In this document: one piece after another, positions 1 to 50,102 of the stretch
Layout of the letters: each line of letters begins with the position of its first letter
Position numbering within the stretch: position 1 is the stretch's first letter
Translations under genes and position numbers: made by a program
Source of the DNA: a virus
Taxonomy: Duplodnaviria > Caudoviricetes
DNA length: 60,385 nt
Reading direction: 5' to 3' (one strand)
IMG/VR virus record: IMGVR_UViG_3300036859_000207
Coordinates: 1 to 60,385 of that record
The notes under the pieces: model-generated
What the model saw: only the letters and a program-made list of their open reading frames with translations
Database searches by the model: none
Told to the model about the DNA's origin: nothing

Positions 1-227
1 TCTTCCTGCAAGTCACCAATCAGCGCTTCTGCGTGACGCCACACGGGTGCGAGACGAAGGAGGAAGCCGAGTGGACGCGCGACATGCTGTGCATCGCGCT
101 TGACCAAGTGGTGCGCGACCACGCGAACAAGTAACTATGAGGTTCACTCGGCTGAGATGCAGAGTTCAGAAGCCACCCGGACATGGGTGGGAGCCCCGCC
201 AATTCGTCCCGCCCAAGGAGAACAGCA

Positions 228-557
228 ATGGGTGAGATTGCCACCACTCCTATAGAGTTCTTCAGCCCGAAGACGCTAGCACAGCGCTGGTCACGCTCGC
301 GCCAGCATGTCTATGATCTGATCGCCGCTGGCGAGATCAAGGCAACGCCGTGGGGCCGGCTCGTGCAAATCCACCGGGCCGAGGTAGAGCGCTTTGAGAG
401 GAAGATGCTATGCGAGACGGGTACATCATCGGACGCTACCGCGGCGAATTCTGCGCCAAGCTCTTCGTCAACGGTAAAAGAGTCAGCCGAGTTACGCTTG
501 GCACGGATAACGCAGAGGAGGCGCAACGACAAATCCGCGACCTCAACGCCGAGTTGA
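228..557 (+). CDS. xis: Excisionase-like HTH protein
   Basis: SD aaggag at 215-220; FSPKTLAQRWSRSRQHVYDLIAAGEIKA winged-HTH pattern; overlaps 5' end of integrase. Confidence 0.8.
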   Translation: MGEIATTPIEFFSPKTLAQRWSRSRQHVYDLIAAGEIKATPWGRLVQIHRAEVERFERKMLCETGTSSDATAANSAPSSSSTVKESAELRLARITQRRRNDKSATSTPS

Positions 558-1501
558 TCCGTGACGCCCTCCCCGAGGTGATCACGGTAGACGCGCTGAT
601 GGACAAGTACATCGCTGACCGTGAGGCCGAGAAGAAGGTCGCCGTTTATCGCATGAAGCAATGCCAGGCGATCCTCAGGCCGCATTTCGGCGCGCTTCGC
701 CCCGAACAGGTCGACAAGGGGTTGTGCACGAAGTTCATCGAGAAGCGGCAGAACGTAAATGTTGCAAATACGACCATCCGCACGGAGCTGGCCTATCTAT
801 CGGCGGCGCTGCAATGGGCCGTCGACATGAAGCTGATAGCGGCCAAGCCGCGCATCTGGAGGCCATCCCGCGGGCGACCGCGAAGCGCCCGTGAGGACTA
901 CCATCTGACCAGGGCGCAGGCGGATCGGCTGTTGGCGGAAGCCAAGGGCACACCGCATCTGTGGCTCTGGATCATCCTGGCGCTCGGAACCGCCGGCCGG
1001 CCGCTGCATATCCTCCAGCTCACCTGGGATCGGGTCGACTTCCACCGCGGCTTCGTCAACCTTGATGACCCGGACCGGGACGCAAACGCAAAGGGGCGCG
1101 CTCGAGTTGCCATGAACGAGAGCGTTCGGGATGCGCTGCTGGAGGCCCGCAGGCGCGCCACCAGCCCGTACGTCATCGAGTTTGAAGGCAAGCCCATCAA
1201 GAGCATCAAGGGCGCCCTGAAGCGTGCCGCAGAGCGTGCCGGCATCGAGGCGAGCCCCTATGTGCTCCGGCATACGGCGGCCGTGTGGATGGCCGAGGCT
1301 GGCGTGCCGATCCCGGAGATCGGACAGATCATGGGGCACAGCAAGCCTGAGATCACCTACAAGGTGTACGCACGCTTCAGCCCAGGACATCAGAAGGGCG
1401 CCGTCTCGAAGCTGGAGGTAATGCGTAGCTCGGCCGGGTCTGTTGAACCGACAACACGGAACGTCGGCGGAACCATCGGGCCAGTCGTGATATCATCGTG
1501 A
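410..1501 (+). CDS. int: Tyrosine integrase
   Basis: Box I GTAGR, box II YVLRH...MGH...TYKVY; directly upstream of tRNA-derived attP. Confidence 0.95.
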   Translation: MRDGYIIGRYRGEFCAKLFVNGKRVSRVTLGTDNAEEAQRQIRDLNAELIRDALPEVITVDALMDKYIADREAEKKVAVYRMKQCQAILRPHFGALRPEQVDKGLCTKFIEKRQNVNVANTTIRTELAYLSAALQWAVDMKLIAAKPRIWRPSRGRPRSAREDYHLTRAQADRLLAEAKGTPHLWLWIILALGTAGRPLHILQLTWDRVDFHRGFVNLDDPDRDANAKGRARVAMNESVRDALLEARRRATSPYVIEFEGKPIKSIKGALKRAAERAGIEASPYVLRHTAAVWMAEAGVPIPEIGQIMGHSKPEITYKVYARFSPGHQKGAVSKLEVMRSSAGSVEPTTRNVGGTIGPVVISS

Positions 1502-1542
1502 AGAAAACCCCAGCAAAACCAACACTCTTTATGTTGAGCGCA

Positions 1543-1590
1543 GCATTCGTAATGCGTGGGTCGGGGGTTCAAATCCCTCCTGCGGCACCA
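1543..1590 (+). other. attP core: 3' half of tRNA-Thr(CGT)
   Basis: gcattcgtaatgcgtgggtcgggggttcaaatccctcctgcggcacca has anticodon loop TTCGTAA, T-arm, acceptor strand and CCA; no 5' half; 40 bp after int stop. Confidence 0.88.
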
Positions 1591-1594
1591 ATAA

Positions 1595-1607
1595 AATCAA
1601 TAGGTTA
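1595..1607 (+). promoter_or_regulatory. IHF-binding site in attP
   Basis: aatcaataggtta matches WATCAANNNNTTR next to the att core. Confidence 0.65.
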
Positions 1608-1714
1608 TGATGAAGTTATGCCTAGCTCAATGGGGTCGTTTGACCCGGTTAGGCAGAAAATAGACCCCGAAAGGGCTGCCGTTGCAACTCAAGAGCGGCA
1701 GCGCTGAACGCCGT

Positions 1715-1741
1715 CTTGCAGCACCGCATTGGTGCTGCAAG
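1715..1741. terminator. Perfect 11-bp hairpin between convergent int and left array
   Basis: cttgcagcacc-gcatt-ggtgctgcaag; a second hairpin lies at about 1674-1702; no clear U-tract. Confidence 0.45.
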
Positions 1742-1793
1742 CGGTTCACCCATTCAGGTGTCCACCAGCACTCTGGCCATCTGCAACTCGCCT

Positions 1794-1826
1794 GGGTCAC
1801 AGGTTCGATCCCTGTACCGCCCACCA
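1794..1826 (+). other. Second tRNA 3' fragment (tRNA-Val-like), possible second or relic att core
   Basis: gggtcacaggttcgatccctgtaccgcccacca has T-arm (acagg-TTCGATC-cctgt), acceptor strand and CCA; no 5' half. Confidence 0.75.
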
Positions 1827-1833
1827 CGCTCCT

Positions 1834-2052
1834 CTATTCTGGTTTGCAGGGCACGCGCGGTACCCGATCTGGCCGGCCCTCTCGATCTTCGCGACTCAGC
1901 TCGACGTAGGCGGCCTCGGCGTATGGGCCGGCAATCTGCGCCAGTGCGGCGGTCGCCTGTACATCTGACAAGCGATGTGTTGATTTCCACGCGCCGACCA
2001 TCTGCCGTAGTTCGGCGATGACCTCCGCGTATGGCCGGTTGATGGGCTTCAT
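1834..2052 (-). CDS. Hypothetical protein (left array)
   Basis: SD gaggagg; ATG at 2052; stop fused to GAGGAG. Confidence 0.65.
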   Translation of the reverse strand: MKPINRPYAEVIAELRQMVGAWKSTHRLSDVQATAALAQIAGPYAEAAYVELSREDREGRPDRVPRVPCKPE

Positions 2053-2063
2053 TGCCTGCCTCC

Positions 2064-2288
2064 TCATGTTCTGTTGGGGGTCTTCTGCAAATCGGCCGCA
2101 ACCGTCGCCACAACGGTCGGCATGATCTGCCGCTTCAGCTCGGCCGTGAATGCTTGGCCTGCAGCCAGCGCGTCGTCCCAATTCTTGAACGGCCCGATGC
2201 GGTTCACGCACTCACCATCGACAAAGACATGGATGTCGGACCCGTGAGGGTGGATCCCGATCTCTGCGTTTACCGTCAGCATCGACAT
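2064..2288 (-). CDS. Hypothetical protein (left array)
   Basis: SD ggagg; C-terminus DLQKTPNRT is encoded by the junction repeat. Confidence 0.65.
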   Translation of the reverse strand: MSMLTVNAEIGIHPHGSDIHVFVDGECVNRIGPFKNWDDALAAGQAFTAELKRQIMPTVVATVAADLQKTPNRT

Positions 2289-2290
2289 GG

Positions 2291-2488
2291 CTACAGCGCC
2301 CTCCGAAACATCTGGCTCAGCATCTCGTGGAGAATGCGAGCCTCCATCTGAGTGATGATGTTCTCCGAGGTCGACTTCGGCCCCACAATCTTTATGGTCG
2401 CGCGCCCGACAGCCATCATGGTTCCGGGTGTGCGGGTTACGCTCATGGAAATCTTGTTGTCCAGCTCGTTGACAAACTCCCGCTGCAT
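2291..2488 (-). CDS. Hypothetical protein (left array)
   Basis: SD taggagg; tightly packed. Confidence 0.6.
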   Translation of the reverse strand: MQREFVNELDNKISMSVTRTPGTMMAVGRATIKIVGPKSTSENIITQMEARILHEMLSQMFRRAL

Positions 2489-2497
2489 CCCAGCCTC

Positions 2498-2698
2498 CTA
2501 TCGTTCTGTCGATTTGCGCAAATCTTCCACCGAAGCCATGTCCCGCAAGTGGTCCTCGATGAGTGCTGCTATCCTGCGGTAGCCAGTCATCCAGTGCTGG
2601 AACGCGACGCCGCCAACCGCATACGGGCACGCGGTCTCCACCTCGCCGAGCTCGGCGGCTCGTTCGCCCATCTTCTGCCACTTGATGACCGAGCCCAC
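2498..2698 (-). CDS. Rmf/CrpP-fold-like small protein (left array)
   Basis: GTG with SD gggagg; ACPY...HWMTGY pattern resembles ribosome modulation factor. Confidence 0.5.
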   Translation of the reverse strand: MGSVIKWQKMGERAAELGEVETACPYAVGGVAFQHWMTGYRRIAALIEDHLRDMASVEDLRKSTER

Positions 2699-2708
2699 GC
2701 GCACCTCC

Positions 2709-2864
2709 CTATCGGAATTGACCGTCGCAGAGATAGCGATGCGCAGCAGCCATCTTGAAAGCGTACCGCCATCGCATCGGTCCTGCGCCATGCCGCTTGC
2801 GGCGAACGATCCACAGCGCTCGCGCCCACATCTTCCAGCCGTAGAGCCATCGCCAGGCGTGCAC
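2709..2864 (-). CDS. Small Trp/Arg-rich hypothetical protein (left array; below ORF-track cutoff)
   Basis: GTG with SD gaggag; 51 aa; fills the gap exactly. Confidence 0.5.
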   Translation of the reverse strand: MHAWRWLYGWKMWARALWIVRRKRHGAGPMRWRYAFKMAAAHRYLCDGQFR

Positions 2865-2874
2865 GTGCTGCTCC

Positions 2875-3060
2875 TCAATTTCTCTCGCGAATGCGGCGCC
2901 TAAGCCGTCGCGCGGCCTCTGTCTTCTCGACGATCAGATCGCCAATATCTGCGTGCGGCTGGTTGGCCTCAGCGATCCGCAGCGCCTCTAACTGCGCCAA
3001 CGTCGCCTCAAGCTCCGCCGCGAGTTTCGCCTTCTTCTGCAACCTCACAGAGGTACGCAT
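2875..3060 (-). CDS. Hypothetical coiled-coil protein (left array)
   Basis: SD aggag; helical composition. Confidence 0.6.
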   Translation of the reverse strand: MRTSVRLQKKAKLAAELEATLAQLEALRIAEANQPHADIGDLIVEKTEAARRLRRRIRERN

Positions 3061-3076
3061 CGTCTCTCCTATCTTA

Positions 3077-3280
3077 TCAGGGGTCGCCAGCGAACACGTC
3101 GTTGGCGCCAGCTTCGATTTCATCTCCATCGCGCTCAGTCATCTCGTTGCGAAGACGCTCAAGGAGAGCATGCGTTGTGTTTGGAACGGGCGTCGGGAAC
3201 TTGGCTTCCACATACTCGCCCCAGCTTACAAGCTGGCGCACTTCGTCATCACTTAGCTCGAACATCGCGTCGCTCCTCAT
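3077..3280 (-). CDS. Hypothetical protein (left array)
   Basis: ORF track; SD present. Confidence 0.6.
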   Translation of the reverse strand: MRSDAMFELSDDEVRQLVSWGEYVEAKFPTPVPNTTHALLERLRNEMTERDGDEIEAGANDVFAGDP

Positions 3281-3462
3281 TTCCGCACTTCGATGACGCG
3301 CGTTGATTGACCGTCAAGCATCGCCCGCTTGCGCTCCGCATCGGCCGACAATCGGTCCACGAAGCACGTGGCGTAGCTCTGACTTTTCATCCACCCAGCG
3401 ACACGATGCCACCAGCGCTGCGGATATCGGTCGTCTTCCGGCCACTCAATCACGAAGGGCAT
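3277..3462 (-). CDS. Hypothetical protein (left array)
   Basis: SD ggaggag before ATG at 3462. Confidence 0.6.
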   Translation of the reverse strand: MPFVIEWPEDDRYPQRWWHRVAGWMKSQSYATCFVDRLSADAERKRAMLDGQSTRVIEVRK

Positions 3463-3641
3463 CTGGTTCTCCTCCGCCGCCAGCCTGCCACGCCGTACAT
3501 ACACATCACGAAGAACCACCAGTTTGCTCTCCACCGATGACCACATGTCCAAGTTGGTTGCAGCCGGCGGCATTCTCGGTTGTGCCAAATGACTGCGAGG
3601 ATCGCCCTGGGCAGCCGCAACAGGCTCAGACGTGGTCGCAA
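3450..3641 (-). CDS. Hypothetical protein (left array)
   Basis: TTG start with SD aaggag; fills gap. Confidence 0.4.
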   Translation of the reverse strand: MRPRLSLLRLPRAILAVIWHNRECRRLQPTWTCGHRWRANWWFFVMCMYGVAGWRRRRTRCPS

Positions 3642-3656
3642 CTCAATGCTCCTTTG

Positions 3657-3845
3657 CTACCTGTCTACGAAATACTCTTCGATCTGATAGTCGGTCGAGG
3701 AGATGCAATCGAACTTTCGACGCTTGGTTTCCTCGAAGTCTCGTTCGGTTGCAGCGTGCGCTTTTTCTCGGGTCGAGAACACGCCGATCATTCGCGGATC
3801 GCGCAGAGTTTCTTTGCCAAAGGTGACAACGAATACCGTCTTCAC
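3657..3845 (-). CDS. Small phage protein, VFVV...IGVFSTREKA family
   Basis: Common small phage-protein motif; SD taggag. Confidence 0.7.
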   Translation of the reverse strand: MKTVFVVTFGKETLRDPRMIGVFSTREKAHAATERDFEETKRRKFDCISSTDYQIEEYFVDR

Positions 3846-3854
3846 GTCGCGCTC

Positions 3855-4082
3855 CTATCTTGACAGCCCAAGCGCGCGCTTCAACCCCGCGAGGGTTTGG
3901 CCACCGCTTCGCTCGAAGTCCTGCAATGCACGTCGCGCGGCCGCTCGATCCTGCTCAGCTCGTCGTTCGGCAACCGCAGCCGCCGCCTCCGCATTGAGGC
4001 ATTCACGGCAGAACAAGTAGCCGTGCCTGTCGCATGTCCACTTGCCAGGGCCGATGCCAGCGTGGTGTGTGCCGTATCTCAT
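3855..4082 (-). CDS. Hypothetical zinc-finger-like protein (left array)
   Basis: CxxH...CxxC; SD gaggagg. Confidence 0.6.
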   Translation of the reverse strand: MRYGTHHAGIGPGKWTCDRHGYLFCRECLNAEAAAAVAERRAEQDRAAARRALQDFERSGGQTLAGLKRALGLSR

Positions 4083-4093
4083 TCGTGCCTCCT

Positions 4094-4318
4094 CTATTCC
4101 GGGTGCCTTGCAAATCTTCCGTCCATGAACTCGCCAATCGGGCGAACCCATACGCGCCCATCGCCATGCGCTTTGTAGACGACAACTGTTGCCAGCGTCG
4201 CCTCGATCTCAGCCACGGCGATCACGTCGTAATAGCCGCCCGTCTTCCGGTGTCGGAACGTATCTCCCATCGACACTTGGCTCAGCGGCTCACCCGTTTC
4301 CACGACTGTCACGTTCAA
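4094..4318 (-). CDS. DUF1653-like SH3-fold protein
   Basis: FRHRKTGGYYDVI...VVVYK...VWVRPIGEFMDGRF signature. Confidence 0.8.
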   Translation of the reverse strand: MNVTVVETGEPLSQVSMGDTFRHRKTGGYYDVIAVAEIEATLATVVVYKAHGDGRVWVRPIGEFMDGRFARHPE

Positions 4319-4323
4319 TGCTC

Positions 4324-4530
4324 CTAAACTTCTGTTGGGGTCTTCTGCAAATCTCGCAGGGTGCGCAAGTCCAGAGGTTTCACGCCAAGCCTGTAGCAGT
4401 CGCCAGCGTGCCAGTAGAGTGCCGGTTCGCGATCCATGGTGTAAACGACACGCTGACCCCGCTCGATGGACTTCCCGCAGTGGTCACACACCTCGCCGCA
4501 GTTCTTGAATGGCGTCACCAACTTCAACAT
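4324..4530 (-). CDS. Hypothetical zinc-binding protein (left array)
   Basis: CDHCGKSI...WHAGDC; C-terminus DLQKTPTEV comes from the junction repeat. Confidence 0.65.
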   Translation of the reverse strand: MLKLVTPFKNCGEVCDHCGKSIERGQRVVYTMDREPALYWHAGDCYRLGVKPLDLRTLRDLQKTPTEV

Positions 4531-4534
4531 CGCT

Positions 4535-4621
4535 TTATCCCTTCGTGGGCAAGATGCAGTCCAGCACAAGGCCGATAGCGAAGAACGCCCACATGAGGCC
4601 GACGATCTCTGCCCACGGCAT
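4535..4621 (-). CDS. 28-aa single-TM peptide (left array)
   Basis: SD taggagg; MPWAEIVGLMWAFFAIGLVLDCILPTKG. Confidence 0.45.
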   Translation of the reverse strand: MPWAEIVGLMWAFFAIGLVLDCILPTKG

Positions 4622-4630
4622 ATGTGCCTC

Positions 4631-4807
4631 CTATTCTGCTGACGGTTTTTGCAAACCCCACAACACTGCGGCTTTGATCAGACCACCCATGCCGCTCAAG
4701 ATCATTCCTGCAGCAACCCACCAGTTGGGCGCAGCTCCGAGCAGCGCAAAAACGCCAGCAGCGCAGCACCAATTTGCGCACAGCAGCAGGTGAACTCGCT
4801 CGCTCAT
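4631..4807 (-). CDS. Small membrane protein (left array)
   Basis: Two hydrophobic segments; SD gaggagg; ends GLQKPSAE (junction repeat). Confidence 0.6.
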   Translation of the reverse strand: MSERVHLLLCANWCCAAGVFALLGAAPNWWVAAGMILSGMGGLIKAAVLWGLQKPSAE

Positions 4808-5019
4808 GCTGCGCCTCCTCATGTGTTGCTGGCTGAGAACCGATCTTCCCAGCGCTTCGCGTCTTCGGGGTACGCCCACCGCATATCCTCAATCATGCGC
4901 CAGAAGCGTTCCTTATCTTCAGTCTTGTCGTCGCGCATCGCGTACATGTGACGGCGCAACAGATCGCCGTAGACGTACGCGGCTGGCTTCCACGGCTCCT
5001 CCAGGACACGGCCCTCCGA

Positions 5020-5247
5020 TTATTTGATCAGTCCCATTTGCTTGAACTGCTCGCGGCGAGCGAAGTTCTGCAGTTCGCCGCGCGTCACCCACCCGTGGAT
5101 TTTACCGCACCGGATGCATTTGCCGCCGATGCCTTCCGGCATGTCGTGGACGCGGCAGGCGAGACACCGGCCGAAGCGACAGCACATTCGTCCGAGCCAC
5201 TCGCTGAAGGTTTCCAAAATTGTCTCTCCTGCTCTTTCGTGCGACAT
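5020..5247 (-). CDS. Cys-rich hypothetical protein (left array)
   Basis: C...H...CIRCG pattern. Confidence 0.55.
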   Translation of the reverse strand: MSHERAGETILETFSEWLGRMCCRFGRCLACRVHDMPEGIGGKCIRCGKIHGWVTRGELQNFARREQFKQMGLIK

Positions 5248-5296
5248 GCCCCGCAGTAGGGGATCGGCGTTCCGTGTCTACACTTCACAGGCCCTC

Positions 5297-5515
5297 CTAT
5301 CTTGTTGCTTTCTCACGGCGCCAAACCGCGACCGTGACCCAGATTGCGACTGATGCCGTTCCGATAATCATGCTCGCCGCCCCGACGTAGTGTATGAGCG
5401 TTGCCGGCACGTCGATCGGGTCAACCAGGAACCAAAACGCGGCACCGACCACGACGAGAAACAAGCCAGACAATCCGACGCGGATCGGTCCTATCTGTTC
5501 GCTGAAGGGCTCCAT
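5297..5515 (-). CDS. Small two-TM membrane protein (left array)
   Basis: SD taggag; two hydrophobic helices. Confidence 0.65.
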   Translation of the reverse strand: MEPFSEQIGPIRVGLSGLFLVVVGAAFWFLVDPIDVPATLIHYVGAASMIIGTASVAIWVTVAVWRREKATR

Positions 5516-5522
5516 GATGCTC

Positions 5523-5891
5523 CTATGCTGTCGAGACTGGCGCGCAGCCGATGTGGTAGCGCTGGCCCATCGTCGTGATGTGTGCGTCGTGCGGGATTGA
5601 CGTGTAACACGTCGGGCACTGCTTCTCCGGAAACACCTTGAGCGAGCGTTCGATGATGGGGTTGACACATTCGTCTTCCACGTCGACCGCGTCGATGCCG
5701 TTTAGGATGTCACCGAGCTGACTAAGCAAGCACGCCGTGCGCTCGCCAACCTGATCTTCCAGTCCCTCCATGCCAGCGCGGTCCTGGAAGAGGCGCGCAT
5801 AGTCGGAGTGAACCTTCGCAATCACATCGGCCATGTGCGCGATGGCGCGGCACTGGTCGGCGACCTGCTGGCGCTTCGTCTGGGTGTCCAT
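5523..5891 (-). CDS. Hypothetical protein with C-terminal CxxC...HxxC
   Basis: SD aggag; first gene downstream of the recombinase. Confidence 0.7.
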   Translation of the reverse strand: MDTQTKRQQVADQCRAIAHMADVIAKVHSDYARLFQDRAGMEGLEDQVGERTACLLSQLGDILNGIDAVDVEDECVNPIIERSLKVFPEKQCPTCYTSIPHDAHITTMGQRYHIGCAPVSTA

Positions 5892-5905
5892 GTCTTGCTC
5901 CTGTC

Positions 5906-6520
5906 TTACCGTTTGCGCCTAGCCTTGGCGCGCTTCAGATAGTTGTTCACTGACGCGGGACTTATGTCGAATTTGAGCGCCAGCGACGACACCGTTGCGC
6001 CTCGCTTGCGCATCCGCACGAGGGTTGCCGCTTGGCGCGCGGTGAGTTTCGGCTGCGCTCCGTACATGAAACCGGCATCCTGTAGAGCCTTGATGCCAGC
6101 CGACGTGCGCTCTGACGTGCGGTCCACTTCGAGCTGCGCTAGTAGCGCCGTAAGCCCCATGGTGAAGCGACCGATCGGCGTCTTTACTTCCAAATGCGGC
6201 TCTGTGATCGAGCGAATTATGCAGCCGGACTTCTCGACCCGCTCGAGAAGCTTGTAGGCGTCGGAGGTGTTGCGCACGAGCCGGTCGAATTTCCATACCA
6301 GCAGCACATCGCCTGGGCGCAGGTCTATCAGCGCAAGCTCTAGCTGCGGCCGCTTGTGCCGCGTCGCGCTGCGCTTCTCCTGATAGATGTTCCAGCAACC
6401 GGCTTTCTCCAATGCCGCGACTTGCATTCGTAGGTCTTGGTCGTCGGTGCTGACCCTCGCGTAGCCGATCAGCTTGCCGGTCTCCTGCTTCTTCTGCACG
6501 CCAACCCCAGCGGTTTCCAC
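5906..6520 (-). CDS. Small serine recombinase (resolvase/invertase family)
   Basis: GYARVST catalytic motif, LRPGDVLLVWKFDRLVR, ERTSAG and C-terminal HTH. Confidence 0.95.
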   Translation of the reverse strand: METAGVGVQKKQETGKLIGYARVSTDDQDLRMQVAALEKAGCWNIYQEKRSATRHKRPQLELALIDLRPGDVLLVWKFDRLVRNTSDAYKLLERVEKSGCIIRSITEPHLEVKTPIGRFTMGLTALLAQLEVDRTSERTSAGIKALQDAGFMYGAQPKLTARQAATLVRMRKRGATVSSLALKFDISPASVNNYLKRAKARRKR

Positions 6521-6550
6521 AGCTCAACATCACATTTAGCGCAAATCCCC

Positions 6551-6581
6551 TTGACTGTCTAGTAGGCGTACGCTAGTTATA
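6551..6581 (+). promoter_or_regulatory. Sigma70-type promoter driving the right array
   Basis: TTGACT-N17-TAGTTA(T) in a GCTAG context, 26 nt upstream of ATG 6607. Confidence 0.65.
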
Positions 6582-6606
6582 CACCATCAGGCACGGGAGA
6601 GACGTA

Positions 6607-6846
6607 ATGGACCGCTTCAACGTCGCAGATCATGAGACCTTCGTACTTGTGACTGAGAAGACCATTCCGGGGCGCAGCTTTTTCTCATGCTTCGGCGCGA
6701 AAAAGGCGAGCTGGGGCTATCGCGGCTGCGGCGTGTTCAGCGTTCCGAGCGGCGAGCGCGAGGCTAACGTCAAGGCTCTGCTCACCGGCAAGTTTCATCG
6801 CTATCGCGTGTTTGATAACGACACCGGCCGCGAACTCACGATCTGA
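6607..6846 (+). CDS. Hypothetical protein (right array 1)
   Basis: SD gggag; ends TGAGGCC. Confidence 0.7.
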   Translation: MDRFNVADHETFVLVTEKTIPGRSFFSCFGAKKASWGYRGCGVFSVPSGEREANVKALLTGKFHRYRVFDNDTGRELTI

Positions 6847-6856
6847 GGCCGGCCAG

Positions 6857-7159
6857 ATGCGCAAAGACCTAATCCCGATGGTCGGCGGAGTGCCGCAGAC
6901 CCGACACATGATCAGGTTGAGGAAGATGGCAACGCTACCAATTCCGGCAATCGAGCTTCAAACGCTTGCCGCCTACGACGCATCAGACCGGCACATTCCC
7001 GACAGCGACCTTGACGATGAGCAGCCCATTACGCTCACGGTCAGCACGACGCTTGGCGAGGTACGGCGCATGCGGCGTACACATGCGATGATCGCGGAGG
7101 GTAAGCGTCTGCGCGATGCGGACGAGCGTGCACGTATCGCTTACGAAGACAGCCTGTAA
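6857..7159 (+). CDS. Hypothetical protein (right array 2)
   Basis: ATG after AGGCC junction. Confidence 0.65.
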   Translation: MRKDLIPMVGGVPQTRHMIRLRKMATLPIPAIELQTLAAYDASDRHIPDSDLDDEQPITLTVSTTLGEVRRMRRTHAMIAEGKRLRDADERARIAYEDSL

Positions 7160-7171
7160 GAAAGGCCCGAG

Positions 7172-7396
7172 ATGTGCGAGCGGTGCGATGATCTGGAGGA
7201 AGCCCTGACCCGCATCATGCTTTGGGCCGATGCCTACCCTCAGGACATCTTCCACGTGCCCGACGCCGCCGAGCTGAAGCGCGCCCATGAAGTTCTGAAG
7301 GCGAACGGCATGACTATCGATGCGATATCGGCGCACGCTATGCGTCACGCTCTACAGGGCGTTGGCGAGATCGCGCGCGGCATTCTGGCGAAGTGA
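7172..7396 (+). CDS. Hypothetical protein (right array 3)
   Basis: ORF track; AGGCC junction. Confidence 0.7.
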   Translation: MCERCDDLEEALTRIMLWADAYPQDIFHVPDAAELKRAHEVLKANGMTIDAISAHAMRHALQGVGEIARGILAK

Positions 7397-7410
7397 GAGA
7401 GGCCAATCTG

Positions 7411-7629
7411 ATGCCGATAGGCCCGAGCGACATCACGATAGCAAGTCAGGGCGCCAACATGGGCGCCCTGCGGATCATGTCTCGACGGACGGAAGAGCAC
7501 ATCGTCAGGGCCATGCTCCGCGACCTCAACGCGGAGGGACTCGTCGTCGTCAGATTGTCGGACTTTGAGAAAGGGCGTGATCTGATAACCGCGATCAGCG
7601 TCGCGATCAAAACCGACGATGACGTTTAG
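7411..7629 (+). CDS. Hypothetical protein (right array 4)
   Basis: AGGCC junction. Confidence 0.6.
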   Translation: MPIGPSDITIASQGANMGALRIMSRRTEEHIVRAMLRDLNAEGLVVVRLSDFEKGRDLITAISVAIKTDDDV

Positions 7630-7648
7630 TGTAACGGAGGCCTCTAAG

Positions 7649-7906
7649 GTGGCGAAGCCATGGACAAACCAAGTGATGCCGCCGCTGCAAGTGCAGCGAG
7701 AGTTTGGCGTCGCGCTTCTGCCATGCCCGTTCTGCGCGAGCGAGAACGTCGGCATGTGGGTTGTCGGTACGCCGCACGTCACGTGCGGAAGGTGCGAGGC
7801 CGATGGTCCCGCCATTTGGGGACCACGCGAAAACCTGGAAGAGCGCCGTCGCGAAGCAGCACTGCGCTGGAACGTGCGCCCGACTCTTCCTCAACCGTCA
7901 ACGTGA
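7649..7906 (+). CDS. Lar-family restriction alleviation-like protein (right array 5)
   Basis: LLPCPFC...VTCGRCEADGP...AALRWNVR signature. Confidence 0.8.
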   Translation: MAKPWTNQVMPPLQVQREFGVALLPCPFCASENVGMWVVGTPHVTCGRCEADGPAIWGPRENLEERRREAALRWNVRPTLPQPST

Positions 7907-7949
7907 GGCCGCCACGATAGCAATCAACACTTGGGCAGGGAGCGGACCA

Positions 7950-8153
7950 ATGCAGATCGATCACTATCGCCTGGATGTGGACGACGACAAGGGCGGCTTT
8001 TCGTTCACCTACGTGCGTCGCGACCTCAGGTATGCAGTCTCGCAATTCGAGAAGCACAGGTGTCGTGCGGGCGTGTCCTGCGTCACGCTGCGCGGCGTAT
8101 CCGCGTGGGGCGACCACATCGAGAACGTGAAGCACTATTCCGCGAACAGTTGA
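7950..8153 (+). CDS. Hypothetical protein (right array 6)
   Basis: SD gggag; ends TGAGGCCCGAGG. Confidence 0.65.
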   Translation: MQIDHYRLDVDDDKGGFSFTYVRRDLRYAVSQFEKHRCRAGVSCVTLRGVSAWGDHIENVKHYSANS

Positions 8154-8164
8154 GGCCCGAGGCC

Positions 8165-8572
8165 ATGAGCGATACTTGCCCGCGCTGCTACCCATTCATG
8201 AAGGGGAACAAGGTCTGTCGTGAGCATGCGCTCGAAGATGCGATCAGACCATTCGTCGAGGCAAGCAAGCGCTACGAGGAGAGCGGCGGCGACTTCGCGA
8301 AGGCGTTCCATTCTGTATCGGTCGCGGACATCCGCCGCGCCGCTGCAATTGACCTGCCGAAGAGTGACAAGGAAAGGCCCCCAAGTCGTGCACGCAAACT
8401 TACCTGGCAGATAGAGGACGAGCGCACGTCGCCTCACGGCGCTGTGGTGCAACTACTTCGGAGTGGCAAACATTGGGGCGTGCGCATTTGGTGGGATGAG
8501 TGTGAGTTTGAGATCACAAAGCACGCATCCGAACAAATTGCACGCGAGCAGTTCGCAACAGCCAACAACTGA
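8165..8572 (+). CDS. Hypothetical protein (right array 7)
   Basis: N-terminal CxxC; AGGCC junction. Confidence 0.65.
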   Translation: MSDTCPRCYPFMKGNKVCREHALEDAIRPFVEASKRYEESGGDFAKAFHSVSVADIRRAAAIDLPKSDKERPPSRARKLTWQIEDERTSPHGAVVQLLRSGKHWGVRIWWDECEFEITKHASEQIAREQFATANN

Positions 8573-8581
8573 GCCCCGACG

Positions 8582-8875
8582 ATGCGAACCAGCGAAGAGC
8601 GGGACCGAATGCACGACGAAGTCGTCGCGCGCTTCCCTGCTGGATTGACGCGCGGGCAGTTCAAGCTGGTGACGCTTGAAAGCGCGGACGAAGAAGACGG
8701 CCGCGTGTATCCGCCGTCGGTTGCCGACGGCGTCATGGCTACGCATTCGCTGATGATGGCGCTCTGGCTGCACGACAAAGTCGTGGAGCCGGGCTGGCGT
8801 GGCTACGACGTGCCGATGTGGTGGAAGATCACCCAGACGGGTCGCGATTGGGTCGCGGCCCAAAACGGAAATTGA
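8582..8875 (+). CDS. Hypothetical protein, winged-helix-like C-terminus (right array 8)
   Basis: WKITQTGR end resembles a wHTH wing. Confidence 0.65.
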   Translation: MRTSEERDRMHDEVVARFPAGLTRGQFKLVTLESADEEDGRVYPPSVADGVMATHSLMMALWLHDKVVEPGWRGYDVPMWWKITQTGRDWVAAQNGN

Positions 8876-8885
8876 GGCCCGAGGC

Positions 8886-9188
8886 TTGGAAGCCACCGCC
8901 ACAGTCGATGACGACGCCCTCTCGTTCCTGCTCTCGCTTGTGGCGAGGGAGCTGGTGGCGCGGAACTCTCCGTTGTGGAAGACGGATGTTGAGGCGGCGG
9001 CAGATGAGCACTGCGAGGCATGCGAAGCGGTGTGGAGCGAACTGTATCGCATGCTCGATAAGATACCCGTTGAAGCGGCGAAGCCGGCGCGGCCGGAACT
9101 GATAAAACGGGCGCTGAAGCGCGACATGAAAAAGGCGCTGAAGGCAGCACTGAGCAACACAGTCGATCAGTTGGTCGACGACCTGTAA
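8886..9188 (+). CDS. Hypothetical protein (right array 9)
   Basis: TTG after TGAGGCCCGAGG. Confidence 0.55.
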   Translation: MEATATVDDDALSFLLSLVARELVARNSPLWKTDVEAAADEHCEACEAVWSELYRMLDKIPVEAAKPARPELIKRALKRDMKKALKAALSNTVDQLVDDL

Positions 9189-9200
9189 GGAAGGCCAGAC

Positions 9201-9494
9201 ATGCTCAGGGTGGGACAGAAAATCGTATGTATCGACGGCGCGCCAGTGCGGAACGACTGCGCGGAGGTGATGCCGCTCCGCTTGGTTGAGGGCCAGATTT
9301 ACACGGTCCGCGAATTACACACCGAGCCGCATATTCATGGCTACGGAGTGCGCCTTGTTGAGCTGCCCAATCCGTCAATCGTCTGGAGCGACGGGACCGA
9401 GAAGGAATGGTCCTACCAGTCAGAGCGCTTTCGGCCAATCGTCGAGGGCGAAACCGAAGCGGGTATGCGCGACCGCGCTCCCGTCAATAGTTGA
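9201..9494 (+). CDS. Phage protein, VGQKIVCID...YTVR...RFRP family (right array 10)
   Basis: Recurrent small beta-rich phage-protein pattern; AGGCC junctions. Confidence 0.75.
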   Translation: MLRVGQKIVCIDGAPVRNDCAEVMPLRLVEGQIYTVRELHTEPHIHGYGVRLVELPNPSIVWSDGTEKEWSYQSERFRPIVEGETEAGMRDRAPVNS

Positions 9495-9503
9495 GGCCCG
9501 TTC

Positions 9504-9577
9504 CAGCGGTAGAGGTCGGTGCACCGCTGAAACCTCGAACAAGCACCGGCCGATCTTATCGGAGCTAGAACCCGATG
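9504..9577 (+). ncRNA. Candidate structured cis-regulatory RNA (pseudoknot plus RBS/ATG-sequestering switch)
   Basis: Stems cagcggt/accgctg, gaggt/acctc, ggtcggtgc/gcaccggcc; alternative ccgat/atcgg pairings. Confidence 0.5.
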
Positions 9578-9712
9578 GACGACGTGAAGAAGCAAGTGAA
9601 AGAGATGATCAGCAAGGCGGCGGAGGCAGAGAAGTCCGACGACGCACTCAAGTTTTCGCAGGCGGCACTGAACGCGGCGAACGCCTTGCGTCAGATTACC
9701 GACACGAAGTAG
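9575..9712 (+). CDS. 45-aa helical protein (right array 11; below ORF-track cutoff)
   Basis: MDDVKKQVKEMISKAAEAEKSDDALKFSQAALNAANALRQITDTK; followed by an 11-bp GAGA-loop hairpin at 9721-9746. Confidence 0.7.
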   Translation: MDDVKKQVKEMISKAAEAEKSDDALKFSQAALNAANALRQITDTK

Positions 9713-9767
9713 GCAACCAGCGCCGCGCTCGGAGACGGGCGCGGCGAACTTCAACGAAGGCCCGAGC

Positions 9768-9968
9768 GTGTCGCGCGACCCGAACTGGATGGACCCCGAT
9801 CAGACAATCACGCCGATTGTCTTGTCCGATATCATCGTCCGCATGCAGCTCAGAGAAGAAGTGGACCCGCGCCTGATGCTGCGAACGCTGCAATGGGCGA
9901 ATGCTCAGATAACTGAGATGCACGAGAAGATTGAGCGGGCGCGCTGGGCGCTCCGCGACCCGCAATAG
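9768..9968 (+). CDS. Hypothetical protein (right array 12)
   Basis: GTG after AAGGCCCGAG; ends TAGAGGCC. Confidence 0.6.
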   Translation: MSRDPNWMDPDQTITPIVLSDIIVRMQLREEVDPRLMLRTLQWANAQITEMHEKIERARWALRDPQ

Positions 9969-10265
9969 AGGCCGCCGTCATGCAGGCGGTGGCTTGCGGT
10001 TGTGCGCTCAAAGCGGCGCATCCCGACCACATCGCACAACTGGCGACAATACAAAGGCTTAGCTTAATCGGATCGTCCCCCGCGCGCGACACCGAACCGA
10101 GGTCCAAAAACAAAAGCAACCCCAACGCGGGGCCGCAGTCAGGCGCAAAAGGACGAAGGCACAAATATCAACCAAGCAACAACATCAGGGCGCACGCCGA
10201 CGTTAGGGCCGTTGCATTCACCGCCCACCGATGCACCCAGGTAGAATTGTACCAGCCATAAAACA

Positions 10266-10586
10266 TCATCCAACAACCCCCAATCCAGCGAGCCACGCTA
10301 GGCCGGAGGACAAAACCCGCCACAGCCAGCGCAGCCCCGGCAAAAGTAGGGTCCATATTGCCGCCGCCGCCAAGGCCAGCAGGGGCCACATATGATAGAG
10401 CAGCTTCAGGAGCCCAACGATCTTGGTCGCGATCTCCGCCATGGAGCTGATCCGCTCCCAATGATCTGCGGATGTCGGCGATGACTGGATCGAGCGGTCT
10501 TCGAGGGTCGAAATCCGCCCATCGTGACTCGTGGTCTGAGTCTTGAGCACCCGAAGGCGCGCCCAGAAAATGCTTTCGAGCTCCAT
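10266..10586 (-). CDS. Membrane protein at end of lysis cassette (holin/antiholin-like)
   Basis: SD gagg; coiled N-terminus (HDGRISTLE) and C-terminal TM. Confidence 0.55.
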   Translation of the reverse strand: MELESIFWARLRVLKTQTTSHDGRISTLEDRSIQSSPTSADHWERISSMAEIATKIVGLLKLLYHMWPLLALAAAAIWTLLLPGLRWLWRVLSSGLAWLAGLGVVG

Positions 10587-11783: not shown

Positions 11784-12006
11784 GACGAGTGTTCCAGACA
11801 CCAAGCCGCCGCAGGGTTTCAAAATGTGGATGAGCCCATATGGCTTCGCTCCGGGAACTGAAACGCCATACGATTATGAGCTGGTAGAAATCTGGCGATC
11901 CGGGAACAGAGATGTTGTCTACCCTGCGAAGCTACACCCGGCATTCAATGTGGCTAACCTCTACTGGCGCCCAGCGAAGCGCTTCGGCGAAGAGATGTCA
12001 GCCTAA
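11782..12006 (+). CDS. Hypothetical protein, antisense insertion in lysis cassette
   Basis: SD aaggag; exactly spans endolysin stop to spanin start. Confidence 0.6.
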   Translation: MTSVPDTKPPQGFKMWMSPYGFAPGTETPYDYELVEIWRSGNRDVVYPAKLHPAFNVANLYWRPAKRFGEEMSA

Positions 12007-49246: not shown

Positions 49247-49464
49247 GCGGTCTCCATCTCTGCGGGAAAGCGGTGCTTGGCGGGCTTTTTCCGTCTGCCA
49301 TGGATGAGATCGATTGGCCGGGAGCCGCCATGCTTGGCCCGCTGCAGCGTTGCCCTGATGTATGCCCTGCAGCAGTTGAGGTGCCTGGCAATTTGCTCGT
49401 GGCTCAGACCGGCTTCATGGAGAGCCAAGACACGCAGTTTCTTTGTCGGCGGACGCGACATCAC
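49243..49464 (-). CDS. Small HTH protein
   Basis: GLSHEQIARHLNCCRAYIR. Confidence 0.75.
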   Translation of the reverse strand: MMSRPPTKKLRVLALHEAGLSHEQIARHLNCCRAYIRATLQRAKHGGSRPIDLIHGRRKKPAKHRFPAEMETA

Positions 49465-50051: not shown

Positions 50052-50102
50052 GTTCTGCTCCCATAGAGTTTTGGGTGGGACGCACAACGCAACGGACTGG
50101 AA

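What the first reader, a model, noticed from the sequence alone, without database searches (positions are those of the whole stretch)
1834..9973. Candidate serine-recombinase 'integron': a resolvase between two outward-facing arrays of about 30 mini-gene cassettes
Seen: an intact small serine recombinase (5906-6520) and a promoter (6551-6581) sit at the centre of about 8 kb. About 18 unrelated ORFs of 28-122 aa run leftward and 12 run rightward, each arm strictly co-oriented. Each arm has its own junction motif placed at or just after the stop codons. The phage's other small-gene operons (41-49 kb, 52-60 kb) mostly use ATGA/GTGA overlaps and lack these motifs. Known: integrons use a tyrosine integrase, Pc promoter and attC-delimited promoterless cassettes, while phage serine invertases normally flip tail-fibre segments; no such segment is near this enzyme. 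Inference: the recombinase may capture, excise or shuffle single-gene cassettes at short degenerate sites and build an accessory library (Lar-like, Rmf-like, DUF1653, small membrane proteins). I know of no described system like this.
Basis: partly seen in the sequence, partly recalled or inferred. Interest (0 to 1): 0.9.

Follow-up and report, generated by a model that had tools for sequence, protein, structure and literature searches.

The report
Shuffled mini-gene arrays in a phage
A soil phage carries two back-to-back strings of about 31 tiny genes joined by a standard stop-plus-ribosome-site junction, and whole genes have been swapped between unrelated phages exactly at these junctions, but the recombinase in the middle is probably not what does the swapping.

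Summary
The anatomy is real. An intact small serine recombinase (5906-6520) heads a leftward operon of 19 tiny genes and faces a rightward operon of 12. No two of the 31 products are related. Each arm has its own junction: in the left arm the stop codon lies inside GGAG, and in the right arm the stop is followed by RGGCC(CGAG). The phage's other operons hardly use either. Two other IMG/VR phages share single genes or gene blocks with the window at 98.4-100% identity, one of them in a different order. All 16 block edges that I examined, including two within-array duplications, lie in the junctions. The recombinase's role is not supported. The motif is a stop codon plus Shine-Dalgarno sequence, not a dyad-symmetric recombination site. 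Two complete phage genomes have the same kind of array, one with an exact single-cassette duplication, and neither has a resolvase-domain gene. Close precedents exist: the Start-Associated Sequences of Cluster K mycobacteriophages (core ATAGGAG) and the PeSL cassettes of T4-type phages. My best reading is a hyperplastic accessory region with standardised translational junctions that also serve as recombination patches. The recombinase is a conserved, itself exchangeable, first gene of unknown target.

The parts
183..557 (+). excisionase-family DNA-binding protein (context)
   Evidence: NCBIfam TIGR01764, 9.2e-8
410..1501 (+). tyrosine integrase of the phage (context); not an integron integrase
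   Evidence: Pfam Phage_integrase 2.9e-18. The integron-integrase models scored 26.6-26.7 bits against cut-offs of 265 and 435.
1543..1590 (+). fragment like the 3' end of a tRNA (candidate attP core)
   Evidence: Read. Short contigs from all three soil runs match only this stretch and continue into tRNA-like bodies. ARAGORN finds no complete tRNA.
1795..1826 (+). second fragment like the 3' end of a tRNA, at the far end of the left arm (candidate attP core)
   Evidence: Summed depth over the bin 1601-2000 is 94-144 against 23 for the phage, and many different loose ends start at 1794/1795 and 1826-1828. The flanking 1762-1806 is 84% identical to L143 771-815, in the same position there.
1834..5891 (-). 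left arm: operon of 19 tiny unrelated genes (28-122 aa) joined by stop-in-GGAG junctions
2495..3474 (-). block of five cassettes shared with phage G001 at 99% identity
2498..2698 (-). RMF-like cassette (weak)
   Evidence: PF04957, 3.3e-6, 27.5 bits against a cut-off of 27.9
3657..3845 (-). DUF7336 cassette (borderline)
   Evidence: PF24024, 1.8e-5, 24.9 bits against a cut-off of 25
4094..4312 (-). DUF1653 cassette
   Evidence: PF07866, 6.5e-9
4628..4828 (-). single membrane-protein cassette shared with G001 at 98.5% identity
5294..5526 (-). single membrane-protein cassette shared with G001 at 97-99.5% identity. It is second in the window's arm and last in G001's arm.
5898..6850 (.). 'platform' block, 100% identical in G001: the recombinase gene, the divergent intergenic region and the first rightward gene
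5906..6520 (-). small serine recombinase (resolvase/invertase type), first gene of the left operon
   Evidence: Pfam Resolvase 2.4e-34. PHROG 125, 6.8e-55. Best solved relative is Gin invertase, 3.5e-30, ahead of gamma-delta resolvase, 1.1e-20.
6521..6606 (.). divergent intergenic region. It holds TTGACT at 6551-6556, an 8-bp palindrome GCGTACGC, and a copy of GATTTGC at 6541-6547 on the minus strand. Candidate site for promoters and for binding of the recombinase or a regulator.
   Evidence: Read. No promoter was returned by the scan.
6607..9968 (+). right arm: operon of 12 small unrelated genes (45-135 aa) joined by stop+RGGCC(CGAG) junctions
7619..7906 (+). Lar-like restriction-alleviation cassette
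   Evidence: PF14354, 3.9e-7, 30.6 bits against a cut-off of 28.6
9198..9500 (+). single cassette shared with a third phage (L143) at 98.4% identity. In the source run it is a separate assembly-graph node at depth 65, against 23 for its neighbours.

Best explanation
The region is a hyperplastic accessory, probably early-gene, region of a temperate soil phage. It lies between int/attP and the lysis and tail genes. It consists of two divergent operons of tiny genes.

Within each operon the genes are joined by a standard adaptor. In the left arm the stop codon is embedded in the Shine-Dalgarno sequence (A-TAG-GAG, or TGA-GGAG), followed by a 4-10 nt spacer and a start codon. In the right arm the stop is followed by (GA)AAGGCC(CGAG) and a start codon.

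Shown: these adaptors are the boundaries at which single genes or runs of genes have recently been exchanged between otherwise unrelated phages, and duplicated within arrays.

Inferred: the adaptors primarily set translation (coupled termination and re-initiation). Because they are the only sequence shared by neighbouring cassettes, they also act as short homology patches for general or phage-encoded relaxed recombination. In a few junctions the similarity stretches over 20-44 nt. Any gene that enters an array in this format is therefore expressed at once and can move on. This is the role proposed for SAS repeats in Cluster K mycobacteriophages and shown for PeSLs in T4-type phages.

The serine recombinase is the conserved first gene of the left operon in one lineage, and it is itself exchanged as a cassette-like block. 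It is not needed for the shuffling. Its own target is unknown. My guess is a site in the divergent intergenic region, serving resolution and/or autoregulation as in the Tn3 family.
For: Junction statistics:.

Exchange between phages:
- G001 (93,968 bp) shares nothing with the window beyond weak protein matches, except four blocks at 97-100% identity. One of them is in a different order.
- L143 (54,202 bp; its recombinase is only 58% identical) shares one cassette with G001 at 99.6% and one with the window at 98.4%.
- All 12 edges of these six blocks, and all 4 edges of two within-array duplications (L168, 514 bp; L194, 202 bp at 100%), lie in the junction. In 15 of the 16 the identity starts or stops at the SD core itself.
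- Left-arm cassettes recur only in left arms and right-arm cassettes only in right arms.
- The blocks differ in divergence: 3 of 201 against 0 of 953 mismatches, Fisher p=0.005. That points to several separate events.
- The G001-type order is reproduced in one contig of an independent soil run (X2), and pieces of it in another (X3). The window's array is reproduced as a single 7,666-nt contig at even depth in X1.

Independence from the recombinase:
- G004 and G006 are both terminally repeated and rated 100% complete. They have 8 and 7 such junctions in the stretches held, and no PF00239 match. The three control records each gave one match.
- G004's array holds the exact cassette duplication.

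The adaptor belongs to the array, not to the gene. Of 47 loci with a homologue of the 145-aa cassette, only the two records of this group carry TGAGGAG/TAGGAG flanks and a recombinase. Most of the other 45 sit in ATGA-overlap operons, and none has a recombinase in the flanks held.

[quoted passage not shown] PeSL-mediated shuffling and mini-circles: PMC2839356 (abstract).
Against: No recombination event was observed directly. Only assembled contigs were available, not raw reads.

Selection for intact genes could by itself place the surviving breakpoints in the very short intergenic junctions, so the role as a homology patch is an inference.

The conserved core is only 7-9 nt, which is short for homologous recombination. 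I found no clear phage recombinase of the Rad52, RecT or Erf type in the window, only a weak Sak4-like match of 4.4e-6.

The recombinase-free arrays (G004, G006) carry the GGAGCGACCGTG variant of the junction. They resemble the arrays behind recombinases 41-55% identical to L143's, not the window's own group, so applying them to the window is an extension.

All 9 of 9 recombinase homologues at 50% identity or more head such an array. This link is unexplained by my reading, except as conserved gene order.

The guess about the recombinase's own function rests on position alone.
Confidence: 0.55

Rival explanations
1. Serine-recombinase 'integron'. The central recombinase recognises the junction motifs, or sites that overlap them, and excises, inserts and re-orders single-gene cassettes. 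The recombinase, the divergent promoter region and the first gene form the fixed platform.
For: - The platform block is 100% identical in two unrelated phages while the cassettes around it differ.
- Arrays with recombinases that are 100% and 58% identical draw on one cassette pool.
- Single cassettes are translocated or duplicated with edges in the motifs.
- 9 of 9 homologues at 50% identity or more head an array.
- Small resolvase-type recombinases can integrate and excise at simple sites: the phiRSM Int (PMC4471427, passages).
- A 7-nt word, GATTTGC, recurs 20-35 nt before four left-arm junctions and once next to the recombinase start.
Against: - The same kind of array, and an exact single-cassette duplication, exist in complete phage genomes with no Resolvase-domain gene.
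- The motif is stop+SD. It is asymmetric, has a 7-9 nt core and differs between the two arms. One enzyme would need two unrelated sites.
- No dyad-symmetric site of about 26-30 bp recurs at the junctions.
- One edge lies at the start codon, not at the core.
- A five-gene block moved as one piece.
- The recombinase gene itself lies inside an exchanged block.
- The motif variants do not track whether a recombinase is present.
- The GATTTGC tail is confined to the window's own small group of arrays.
Confidence: 0.1
2. Ordinary mosaicism with no special role for the motifs. Random illegitimate recombination between co-infecting phages, followed by selection for intact and expressed genes, leaves breakpoints in the only non-coding bases there are. 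The motifs are purely translational signals.
For: Intergenic space in the arms is only about 7-17 nt and consists of the motif itself, so any viable junction must fall there. The core equals the Shine-Dalgarno sequence. One edge is offset to the start codon. Mosaicism with gene-boundary breakpoints is the textbook pattern for phages; PMC3203893 cites it in its introduction.
Against: - 15 of 16 edges sit at the same position relative to the SD core.
- Block identities of 98.4-100% leave little time for selection to sift rare illegitimate events.
- The adaptor type is specific to each arm and almost absent from the phage's other operons.
- The same gene family carries the adaptor only inside this group's arrays.
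- Similarity stretches over 20-44 nt at some junctions, with the GATTTGC word falling in all three reading frames.
- Dispersed exact duplications of single cassettes exist.
Confidence: 0.25
3. The recombinase is a DNA invertase or an alternative integrase for a target elsewhere (a flip switch, or a second attP at 1795-1826), and its position among the arrays is incidental.
For: - The best solved relative is the Gin invertase, and PHROG names the family 'DNA invertase'.
- There are two fragments like tRNA 3' ends but only one tyrosine integrase.
- The phiRSM-type enzymes integrate at a tRNA gene.
- A 23-nt, 96% inverted repeat flanks 130 bp at 50103-50278.
Against: - No inverted repeats of note flank the gene or any tail-fibre segment.
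- The tRNA-like piece sits in the same place next to the tyrosine integrase in L143.
- The position at the head of an array is conserved in 9 of 9 close homologues, which is not incidental.
- The 50-kb repeat is about 16 kb away around the circle and lies in the repressor region, where paired operators are expected.
Confidence: 0.07
4. Assembly artefact: the mosaic pattern comes from chimeric metagenome contigs joined at shared repeats.
For: All records are metagenome assemblies. The shared cassette 9198-9500 is a branching node in the source run.
Against: - An independent assembly (Logan) of the source run gives 1562-9227 as one contig at depth 23, and 9471 onward at depth 25. The competing path has depth about 50-65.
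- The G001 order is found in IMG/VR records from two samples and in one 9,439-nt contig of another study's run.
- The window closes on itself with a 111-nt terminal repeat.
Confidence: 0.03

Closest known systems
Start-Associated Sequences (SAS) and Extended SAS of Cluster K mycobacteriophages (Pope et al. 2011, PMC3203893; passages of the SAS section and concluding remarks read; figures and supplementary files not seen)
   Same: An asymmetric conserved word that contains AGGAG, and the same ATAGGAG core. It lies a few bases before start codons, often contains the upstream gene's stop codon, has one orientation, is confined to non-structural small genes, and precedes unrelated gene families. 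About half of the SAS carry an extra upstream element; here a few junctions carry a GATTTGC tail. [quoted passage not shown]
   Different: Only the 7-nt core matches the 13-nt SAS consensus. Here there are two arm-specific versions. The host and phage group are unknown soil ones. Near-identical cassettes shared between unrelated phages, with edges in the motif, are documented here; in the passages I read, the paper only raises that as a possibility. No serine recombinase is mentioned in those passages.
PeSL (promoter-early stem-loop) cassettes of T4-type phage hyperplastic regions (Arbiol et al. 2010, PMC2839356, abstract read; Comeau et al. 2014, PMC4122927, search listing only)
   Same: Short conserved expression signals between small non-essential ORFs act as recombination points that insert, delete, replace and shuffle single genes between related phages. 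Mini-circles are the proposed vehicle.
   Different: PeSLs are transcription signals (a sigma-70 promoter plus a terminator hairpin). Here the shared element is a translation signal inside a polycistronic operon. The scan of 1500-10500 found 1 promoter-like site, and 10 terminator-like sites against 7.0 expected. The phages here are temperate and the exchange is between unrelated backbones.
Integrons
   Same: A recombinase next to an outward promoter region, followed by co-oriented, tightly packed, promoterless single-gene cassettes that differ between otherwise identical platforms. The same cassettes occur on different platforms.
   Different: The enzyme is a serine recombinase, not an IntI tyrosine recombinase. 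There are no attC-type folded sites of 57-141 bp (that size is recalled, not from a call); the junctions are 7-17 nt of stop+SD. There are two divergent arrays. The arrays also exist without the enzyme.
Small serine recombinases: Gin/Hin invertases, Tn3/gamma-delta resolvases, phiRSM Int
   Same: Domain order (catalytic domain, then a C-terminal HTH), catalytic motifs and size. The gene abuts a divergent promoter region, as tnpR abuts res in Tn3 (recalled).
   Different: About 40% identity to any characterised member. No invertible segment, no recognisable res site, and no attP was shown for it.
Relaxed homologous recombination by phage Rad52-like recombinases (De Paepe et al. 2014, PMC3945230; search listing and start of abstract only)
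   Same: A mechanism by which temperate phages exchange DNA at short or diverged homologies.
   Different: No clear recombinase of that type was found in the window. Its use here is an inference.

Membership tests
Integron | IntI-type tyrosine recombinase adjacent to the array | tested here: not met
   The adjacent enzyme has a Resolvase domain. The phage's tyrosine integrase (410-1501) scores 26.6-26.7 bits against the integron-integrase cut-offs of 265 and 435.
Integron | attC sites (imperfect inverted repeats) at the 3' end of each cassette | tested here: not met
   The junctions are 7-17 nt of stop+SD+spacer. No recurring inverted repeat was found at the junctions.
Integron | Variable, co-oriented, promoterless cassettes on a conserved platform | tested here: met
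   The platform is 100% identical in G001 with different cassettes around it. One promoter-like site was found in 9 kb.
Small serine recombinase (resolvase/invertase) | N-terminal catalytic domain with the serine nucleophile and the DRLxR motif | tested here: met
   PF00239, 2.4e-34. S24 and D79-R80-L81-x-R83 are invariant in the 4-sequence alignment.
Small serine recombinase (resolvase/invertase) | C-terminal helix-turn-helix domain | tested here: inconclusive
   Only sub-threshold matches: HTH_23 at 0.0071 and HTH_10 at 0.0081. The match to Gin covers residues 17-191.
DNA invertase (Hin/Gin type) | Invertible segment bounded by inverted crossover sites next to the gene | tested here: not met
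   The longest inverted pair within 1500-10500 is 33 nt at 73%. None brackets the gene or a plausible segment.
Resolvase (Tn3 type) | res site with several dimer-binding subsites beside the gene | tested here: inconclusive
   The intergenic region is only 86 bp (6521-6606). It holds one 8-bp palindrome and one GATTTGC word. No repeated subsites were recognised.
IS607-family transposase | TnpA model match and a TnpB partner | tested here: not met
   NF033518 scores 25.9 bits against a cut-off of 110. There is no TnpB in the window. The 58%-identical homologue in L143 is followed by a TnpB with a 4-nt overlap.
Start-Associated Sequences (Cluster K mycobacteriophages) | Conserved asymmetric word containing AGGAG, 3-7 bp before start codons, in one orientation, in the non-structural region, with the upstream stop codon often inside it | tested here: met
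   definition from PMC3203893
Start-Associated Sequences (Cluster K mycobacteriophages) | The 13-nt consensus GGGATAGGAGCCC with at most two deviations | tested here: not met
   Only the ATAGGAG core is shared. The flanks here are variable on the 5' side and G/C then C/A on the 3' side.
PeSL | Early promoter plus terminator stem-loop between the ORFs | tested here: not met
   In 1500-10500 the scan found 1 promoter-like site (at 1568-1597, outside the arms), and 10 terminator-like sites against 7.0 expected.

The most novel reading that the evidence does not exclude
The lineage-specific serine recombinase that heads these arrays is the catalyst, or a necessary helper, of cassette capture and re-ordering at the standard junctions. 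That would make it a serine-recombinase counterpart of the integron, carried by temperate soil phages. The recombinase-free arrays would then be served in trans or be fossil arrays.
Probability: 0.1. Interest if true: 0.9.

Novelty: new variant of a known kind. Interest (0 to 1): 0.5.

Why it matters
If the reading holds, some temperate phages keep their accessory genes (restriction alleviation, small membrane proteins, methylases in related arrays) in a plug-and-play format. A standard stop/ribosome-site adaptor makes any incoming gene expressible and gives it the homology to move on. Unrelated phages in soil would then draw on one common cassette pool.

That would give a function to the unexplained SAS-type repeats. 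It would extend the PeSL idea from transcription signals to translation signals, and from one phage family to exchange between unrelated backbones.

It also offers a simple sequence signature for finding hypervariable counter-defence loci in viral metagenomes.

The constant presence of a serine recombinase at the head of one lineage of arrays remains an open and testable puzzle.

Tried and rejected
Searches for close relatives of the recombinase:
- Phage records: 459 records matched, all below 60% identity, the best about 40%.
- Plasmids: the 15 records listed are 38-43% identical, and all of at least 5000 are below 60%.
- Genome contigs: 14 loci, at most 44%.
- Metagenome contigs: 37 loci, the best 49%.
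- IMG/VR with the single protein found only G001 and a fragment of it. L143 was found only through a cassette.

Other dead ends:
- Megablast of the whole region against phage records found nothing.
- A terminase relative (L054/G002, 80% identity) is a 47%-complete fragment without the region.
- The search of earlier findings returned nothing.
- ARAGORN and Rfam found nothing in the window. In L015, Rfam likewise found nothing and ARAGORN no tRNA.
- Burkholderia phage FLC5, the top named hit, has its recombinase beside the repressor of a P2-like genome and no array.

Points from read laying:
- The 'joint 1792 to 9185' in run X1 looked like a deletion of the whole array. It is a contig of the L143-type phage, which carries both short matches 5 kb apart. 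I rejected it as a deletion.
- The weak X2/X3 joints (6850 to 8361 with side 21; 3100 to 8614 at depth 3.9) are too short or too thin, and I did not interpret them.
- Parts of the window without cover in X2 and X3 say nothing.
- All three runs are kept as contigs. Circles, inversions and rare re-arrangements could therefore not be looked for.

Ideas considered and dropped:
- TAG read as a sense codon: the genes lie in different frames, each with its own start.
- The 11-nt direct repeat CACCGCCCACC at 1815-1825 and 10219-10229 as att-like ends of an 8.4-kb island: about 10 such pairs are expected by chance in 9 kb (my own estimate), and G001 shows no counterpart.

Not used: structure prediction, fold search, complex prediction, the search for homologous proteins, the search of protein representatives, the protein-atlas search, the listing of cluster members and the RNA-model tools. 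The questions they answer were not the open ones here.

Supplementary files of PMC3203893 (Figs S3, S4, tables) and its figures 14 and 15 were not seen. They hold the full SAS/ESAS alignments and could refine the comparison.

Full report
**What the window is.** The window is a complete virus record of 60,385 bp. Its first 111 bases repeat at the end, so it is circular or terminally redundant. It is a temperate tailed phage. The genes recognised are:
- an excisionase-family protein and a tyrosine integrase at 183-1501;
- an endolysin at 12003-12833;
- a connector protein (PHROG 'head closure Hc3') at 23140-24615, a portal and a large terminase between 23 and 39 kb;
- a repressor-like protein at 50819-51415.

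No record in the phage collection is similar at the DNA level.

**Checking the observation.**
- The ORF at 5906-6520 (-) is an intact small serine recombinase. It scores Pfam Resolvase 2.4e-34 and PHROG 125 'DNA invertase' 6.8e-55. Its closest solved relative is the Gin invertase (3.5e-30), ahead of gamma-delta resolvase (1.1e-20). The serine nucleophile and the DRLxR motif are conserved.
- Reading the coding strands and anchoring starts on the junctions, I leftward genes (28-122 aa) and 12 rightward genes (45-135 aa). Each arm is strictly co-oriented. No pair among the 31 products is related at E<=0.01.
- Pfam supports the DUF1653, Lar-like and, just under its cut-off, RMF-like labels.
- The consensus scan did not return the promoter proposed at 6551-6581. 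A TTGACT hexamer is there, but the -10 element is poor.

**The junction motifs.** They are real and specific to each arm.
- Left arm: the stop codon lies inside or beside GGAG (mostly A-TAG-GAG or TGA-GGAG), followed 3-10 nt later by a start codon. The whole minus strand has 16 such sites, 13 of them in 1836-5525. ATAGGAG occurs 9 times against 2.8 expected, with 0 of 100 shuffles reaching 9.
- TAG ends 11 of the 19 left-arm genes, against 11 of 67 elsewhere.
- Right arm: the stop is followed by (GA)AAGGCC(CGAG) and a start codon. GGCCCGAG occurs 7 times on the plus strand (5 in the arm) and never on the minus strand.
- In my 67 rough gene calls for the rest of the genome, 29 end in xTGA overlaps and only 2 in each arm's junction type.

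Both motifs are, at their core, a stop codon fused to a Shine-Dalgarno sequence. A longer similarity of 20-44 nt links some left-arm junctions. It includes the word GATTTGC 20-35 nt before four junctions, with a fifth copy beside the recombinase start. That word falls in all three reading frames, so it is conserved as nucleic acid, not as peptide. It is confined to the window's own small group of arrays.

- IMG/VR holds one other phage with an identical recombinase: G001, 93,968 bp (L015; L016 is a fragment of the same sequence).
- G001 is otherwise unrelated to the window, even at the protein level.
- It shares four blocks with the window: 5898-6850 (recombinase, intergenic region and first rightward gene; 100%), 2495-3474 (five genes; 99%), 4628-4828 (one gene; 98.5%) and 5294-5526 (one gene; 97-99.5%).
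- The last block is the second gene of the window's left arm but the last gene of G001's arm.
- In G001 the array has third-position GC of 0.70-0.76, while the flanking genes have 0.85-0.88. The array looks foreign there.

A third phage, L143 (54,202 bp), was found through a right-arm cassette.
- It has the same layout: integrase, tRNA-like piece, left arm, recombinase, right arm, lysin.
- Its recombinase is only 58% identical.
- It shares one left-arm cassette with G001 at 99.6% and one right-arm cassette with the window at 98.4%.
- That right-arm cassette is also a separate, deeper node in an independent assembly of the source run (depth 65 against 23). This fits both phages living in that sample.
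- The G001 arrangement is reproduced in a single 9,439-nt contig from another study's soil run.

**Where the edges fall.** I examined all 12 edges of the six blocks shared between phages. I also examined the 4 edges of two within-array duplications: L168, 514 bp, and L194, 202 bp at 100%.
- All 16 edges lie in the junction.
- In 15 of them the identity begins or ends at the SD core: after GGAG in left arms, and after GGCC(CG) or just before the spacer and ATG in right arms.
- In one, the 5' edge of the five-gene block, identity begins at the start codon.
- The operational cassette is therefore spacer + ORF + stop/SD.
- Left-arm cassettes recur only in left arms and right-arm cassettes only in right arms. 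A 67% homologue of the right-arm cassette sits to the right of a recombinase gene in L144.
- The blocks differ in divergence: 3 of 201 against 0 of 953 mismatches, p=0.005. Several exchanges at different times fit better than one transfer followed by losses.

**Is the recombinase the agent? Evidence for.**
- Among 138 loci with a homologue, all 9 that are at least 50% identical to the window's or L143's enzyme, and have at least 1.4 kb of downstream sequence, are followed by three or more stop-in-GGAG junctions (3 to 12 of them).
- Below 50% identity only six loci reach three junctions.
- So one recombinase lineage is always the first gene of such an array.

**Is the recombinase the agent? Evidence against.**
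- A scan of IMG/VR for the commonest junction word in the more distant arrays gave eight loci.
- Two of them lie in terminally repeated records rated 100% complete (G004 and G006). They have 8 and 7 junctions in the stretches held.
- Neither record has any match to the recombinase alignment or to Pfam Resolvase. Three control records each gave exactly one Resolvase hit.
- G004's array contains the exact duplication of a single 59-aa cassette, bounded by the junctions.
- These arrays carry methylase genes (Dam, C5) and start with other genes.
- The motifs are asymmetric, short and different in the two arms. No recurring dyad-symmetric site of recombinase size was found.
- The recombinase gene is itself inside an exchanged block that ends in the junctions.
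- These recombinase-free arrays belong to the wider family (the GGAGCGACCGTG variant), not to the window's closest group, so the argument is by extension.

**The adaptor belongs to the array, not to the gene.** The 145-aa cassette shared by G001 and L143 has homologues in 47 IMG/VR loci. Only the two records of this group flank it with TGAGGAG and TAGGAG and have the recombinase nearby. Most of the other 45 (42-66% identical) sit in ordinary ATGA-overlap operons, and none has a recombinase in the flanks held. Genes are thus re-formatted on entering these arrays.

**Comparison with what is known.** The nearest precedent is the Start-Associated Sequence of Cluster K mycobacteriophages.
- It is a 13-nt asymmetric repeat, GGGATAGGAGCCC, lying 3-7 bp before the start codons of non-structural genes.
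- It often contains the upstream gene's stop codon and precedes unrelated gene families.
- About half of the copies carry an extended upstream element.
- Its function is unknown. [quoted passage not shown]
- The window shares the ATAGGAG core and every positional property, but not the full consensus.

The nearest mechanistic precedent is PeSL-mediated modular shuffling in T4-type phages, where conserved promoter-terminator cassettes between small ORFs recombine and form mini-circles (PMC2839356, abstract). Here the shared element is translational, and promoters and terminators are not enriched between the genes.

The resemblance to integrons is one of pattern only: a platform plus variable promoterless cassettes. 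The defining enzyme and the attC sites are absent.

Small resolvase-type enzymes can act as integrases (phiRSM, PMC4471427, passages).

**Verdict.**
- The part of the interpretation about cassette arrays exchanged at motif boundaries is supported and extended to a family of soil phages.
- The part about a recombinase-driven 'integron' is not supported. I put it at about 0.1.
- My best explanation (0.55) is a hyperplastic accessory region whose standard translational adaptors double as recombination patches.
- Plain illegitimate recombination filtered by selection (0.25) is the main rival. It cannot be excluded without experiments.
- The recombinase's own job is unknown. From its position beside a divergent intergenic region I guess resolution and/or autoregulation.

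This is a new variant of a known kind (SAS- or PeSL-like). It is of moderate interest, with an open question about the recombinase that could raise it.

Noticed in passing
L143 3134-5004 (minus strand): In the third phage, the 58%-identical recombinase is followed, with a 4-nt GTGA overlap, by a 426-aa TnpB-type protein (HTH_OrfB_IS605, OrfB_IS605, Cas12f1-like TNB). This gene order recalls IS607, but the recombinase here is resolvase-type with a C-terminal HTH. A PAPS-reductase-like gene of 288 aa follows.
   Followed up: partly
window 50103-50125 and 50256-50278: A 23-nt, 96% complementary inverted repeat flanks 130 bp between the leftward gene 49461-50123 and the repressor-like gene 50819-51415. 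It may be paired operators or a small invertible switch.
   Followed up: no
window 47365-47567: Four to five direct repeats of 27-47 nt (iteron-like), possibly a replication origin.
   Followed up: no
window 52066-52413: About 29 tandem copies of a 12-nt unit (20 overlapping 120-nt registers were reported), in a region of 67% GC. It is probably a repetitive peptide inside a gene.
   Followed up: no
window 1543-1590 and 1795-1826: Two separate fragments like tRNA 3' ends lie between the integrase and the left arm. Both are matched by many unrelated soil contigs that continue into tRNA bodies. There is only one tyrosine integrase.
   Followed up: partly
L199 4103-4587, 7646-7868 and 9057-9329: In the recombinase-free phage G006, the Dam-methylase cassette has a second copy that is split by about 1.2 kb of other sequence. 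About 11 nt (4315-4325) are common to both halves at the join. This could be an insertion into the duplicate.
   Followed up: no
L015 about 8880-9010 (minus strand of the locus): G001's right arm contains about 130 nt with two tRNA T-arm-like motifs in place of a gene (read). ARAGORN and Rfam report nothing there.
   Followed up: partly
window 5020-5288 and 4950-5019: After the junction at 5297 a GTG-started frame (5085-5288) overlaps the better-coding zinc-ribbon-like gene 5020-5247. The stretch 4950-5019 holds two SD-like sites but no convincing ORF. These may be scars of past junction events.
   Followed up: partly
window 3450-3641: The window's copy of the five-gene block has no stop codon before its first gene. 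An odd Arg/Trp/Cys-rich 63-aa frame overlaps the junction there, whereas G001 has a clean TGAGGAG junction.
   Followed up: partly
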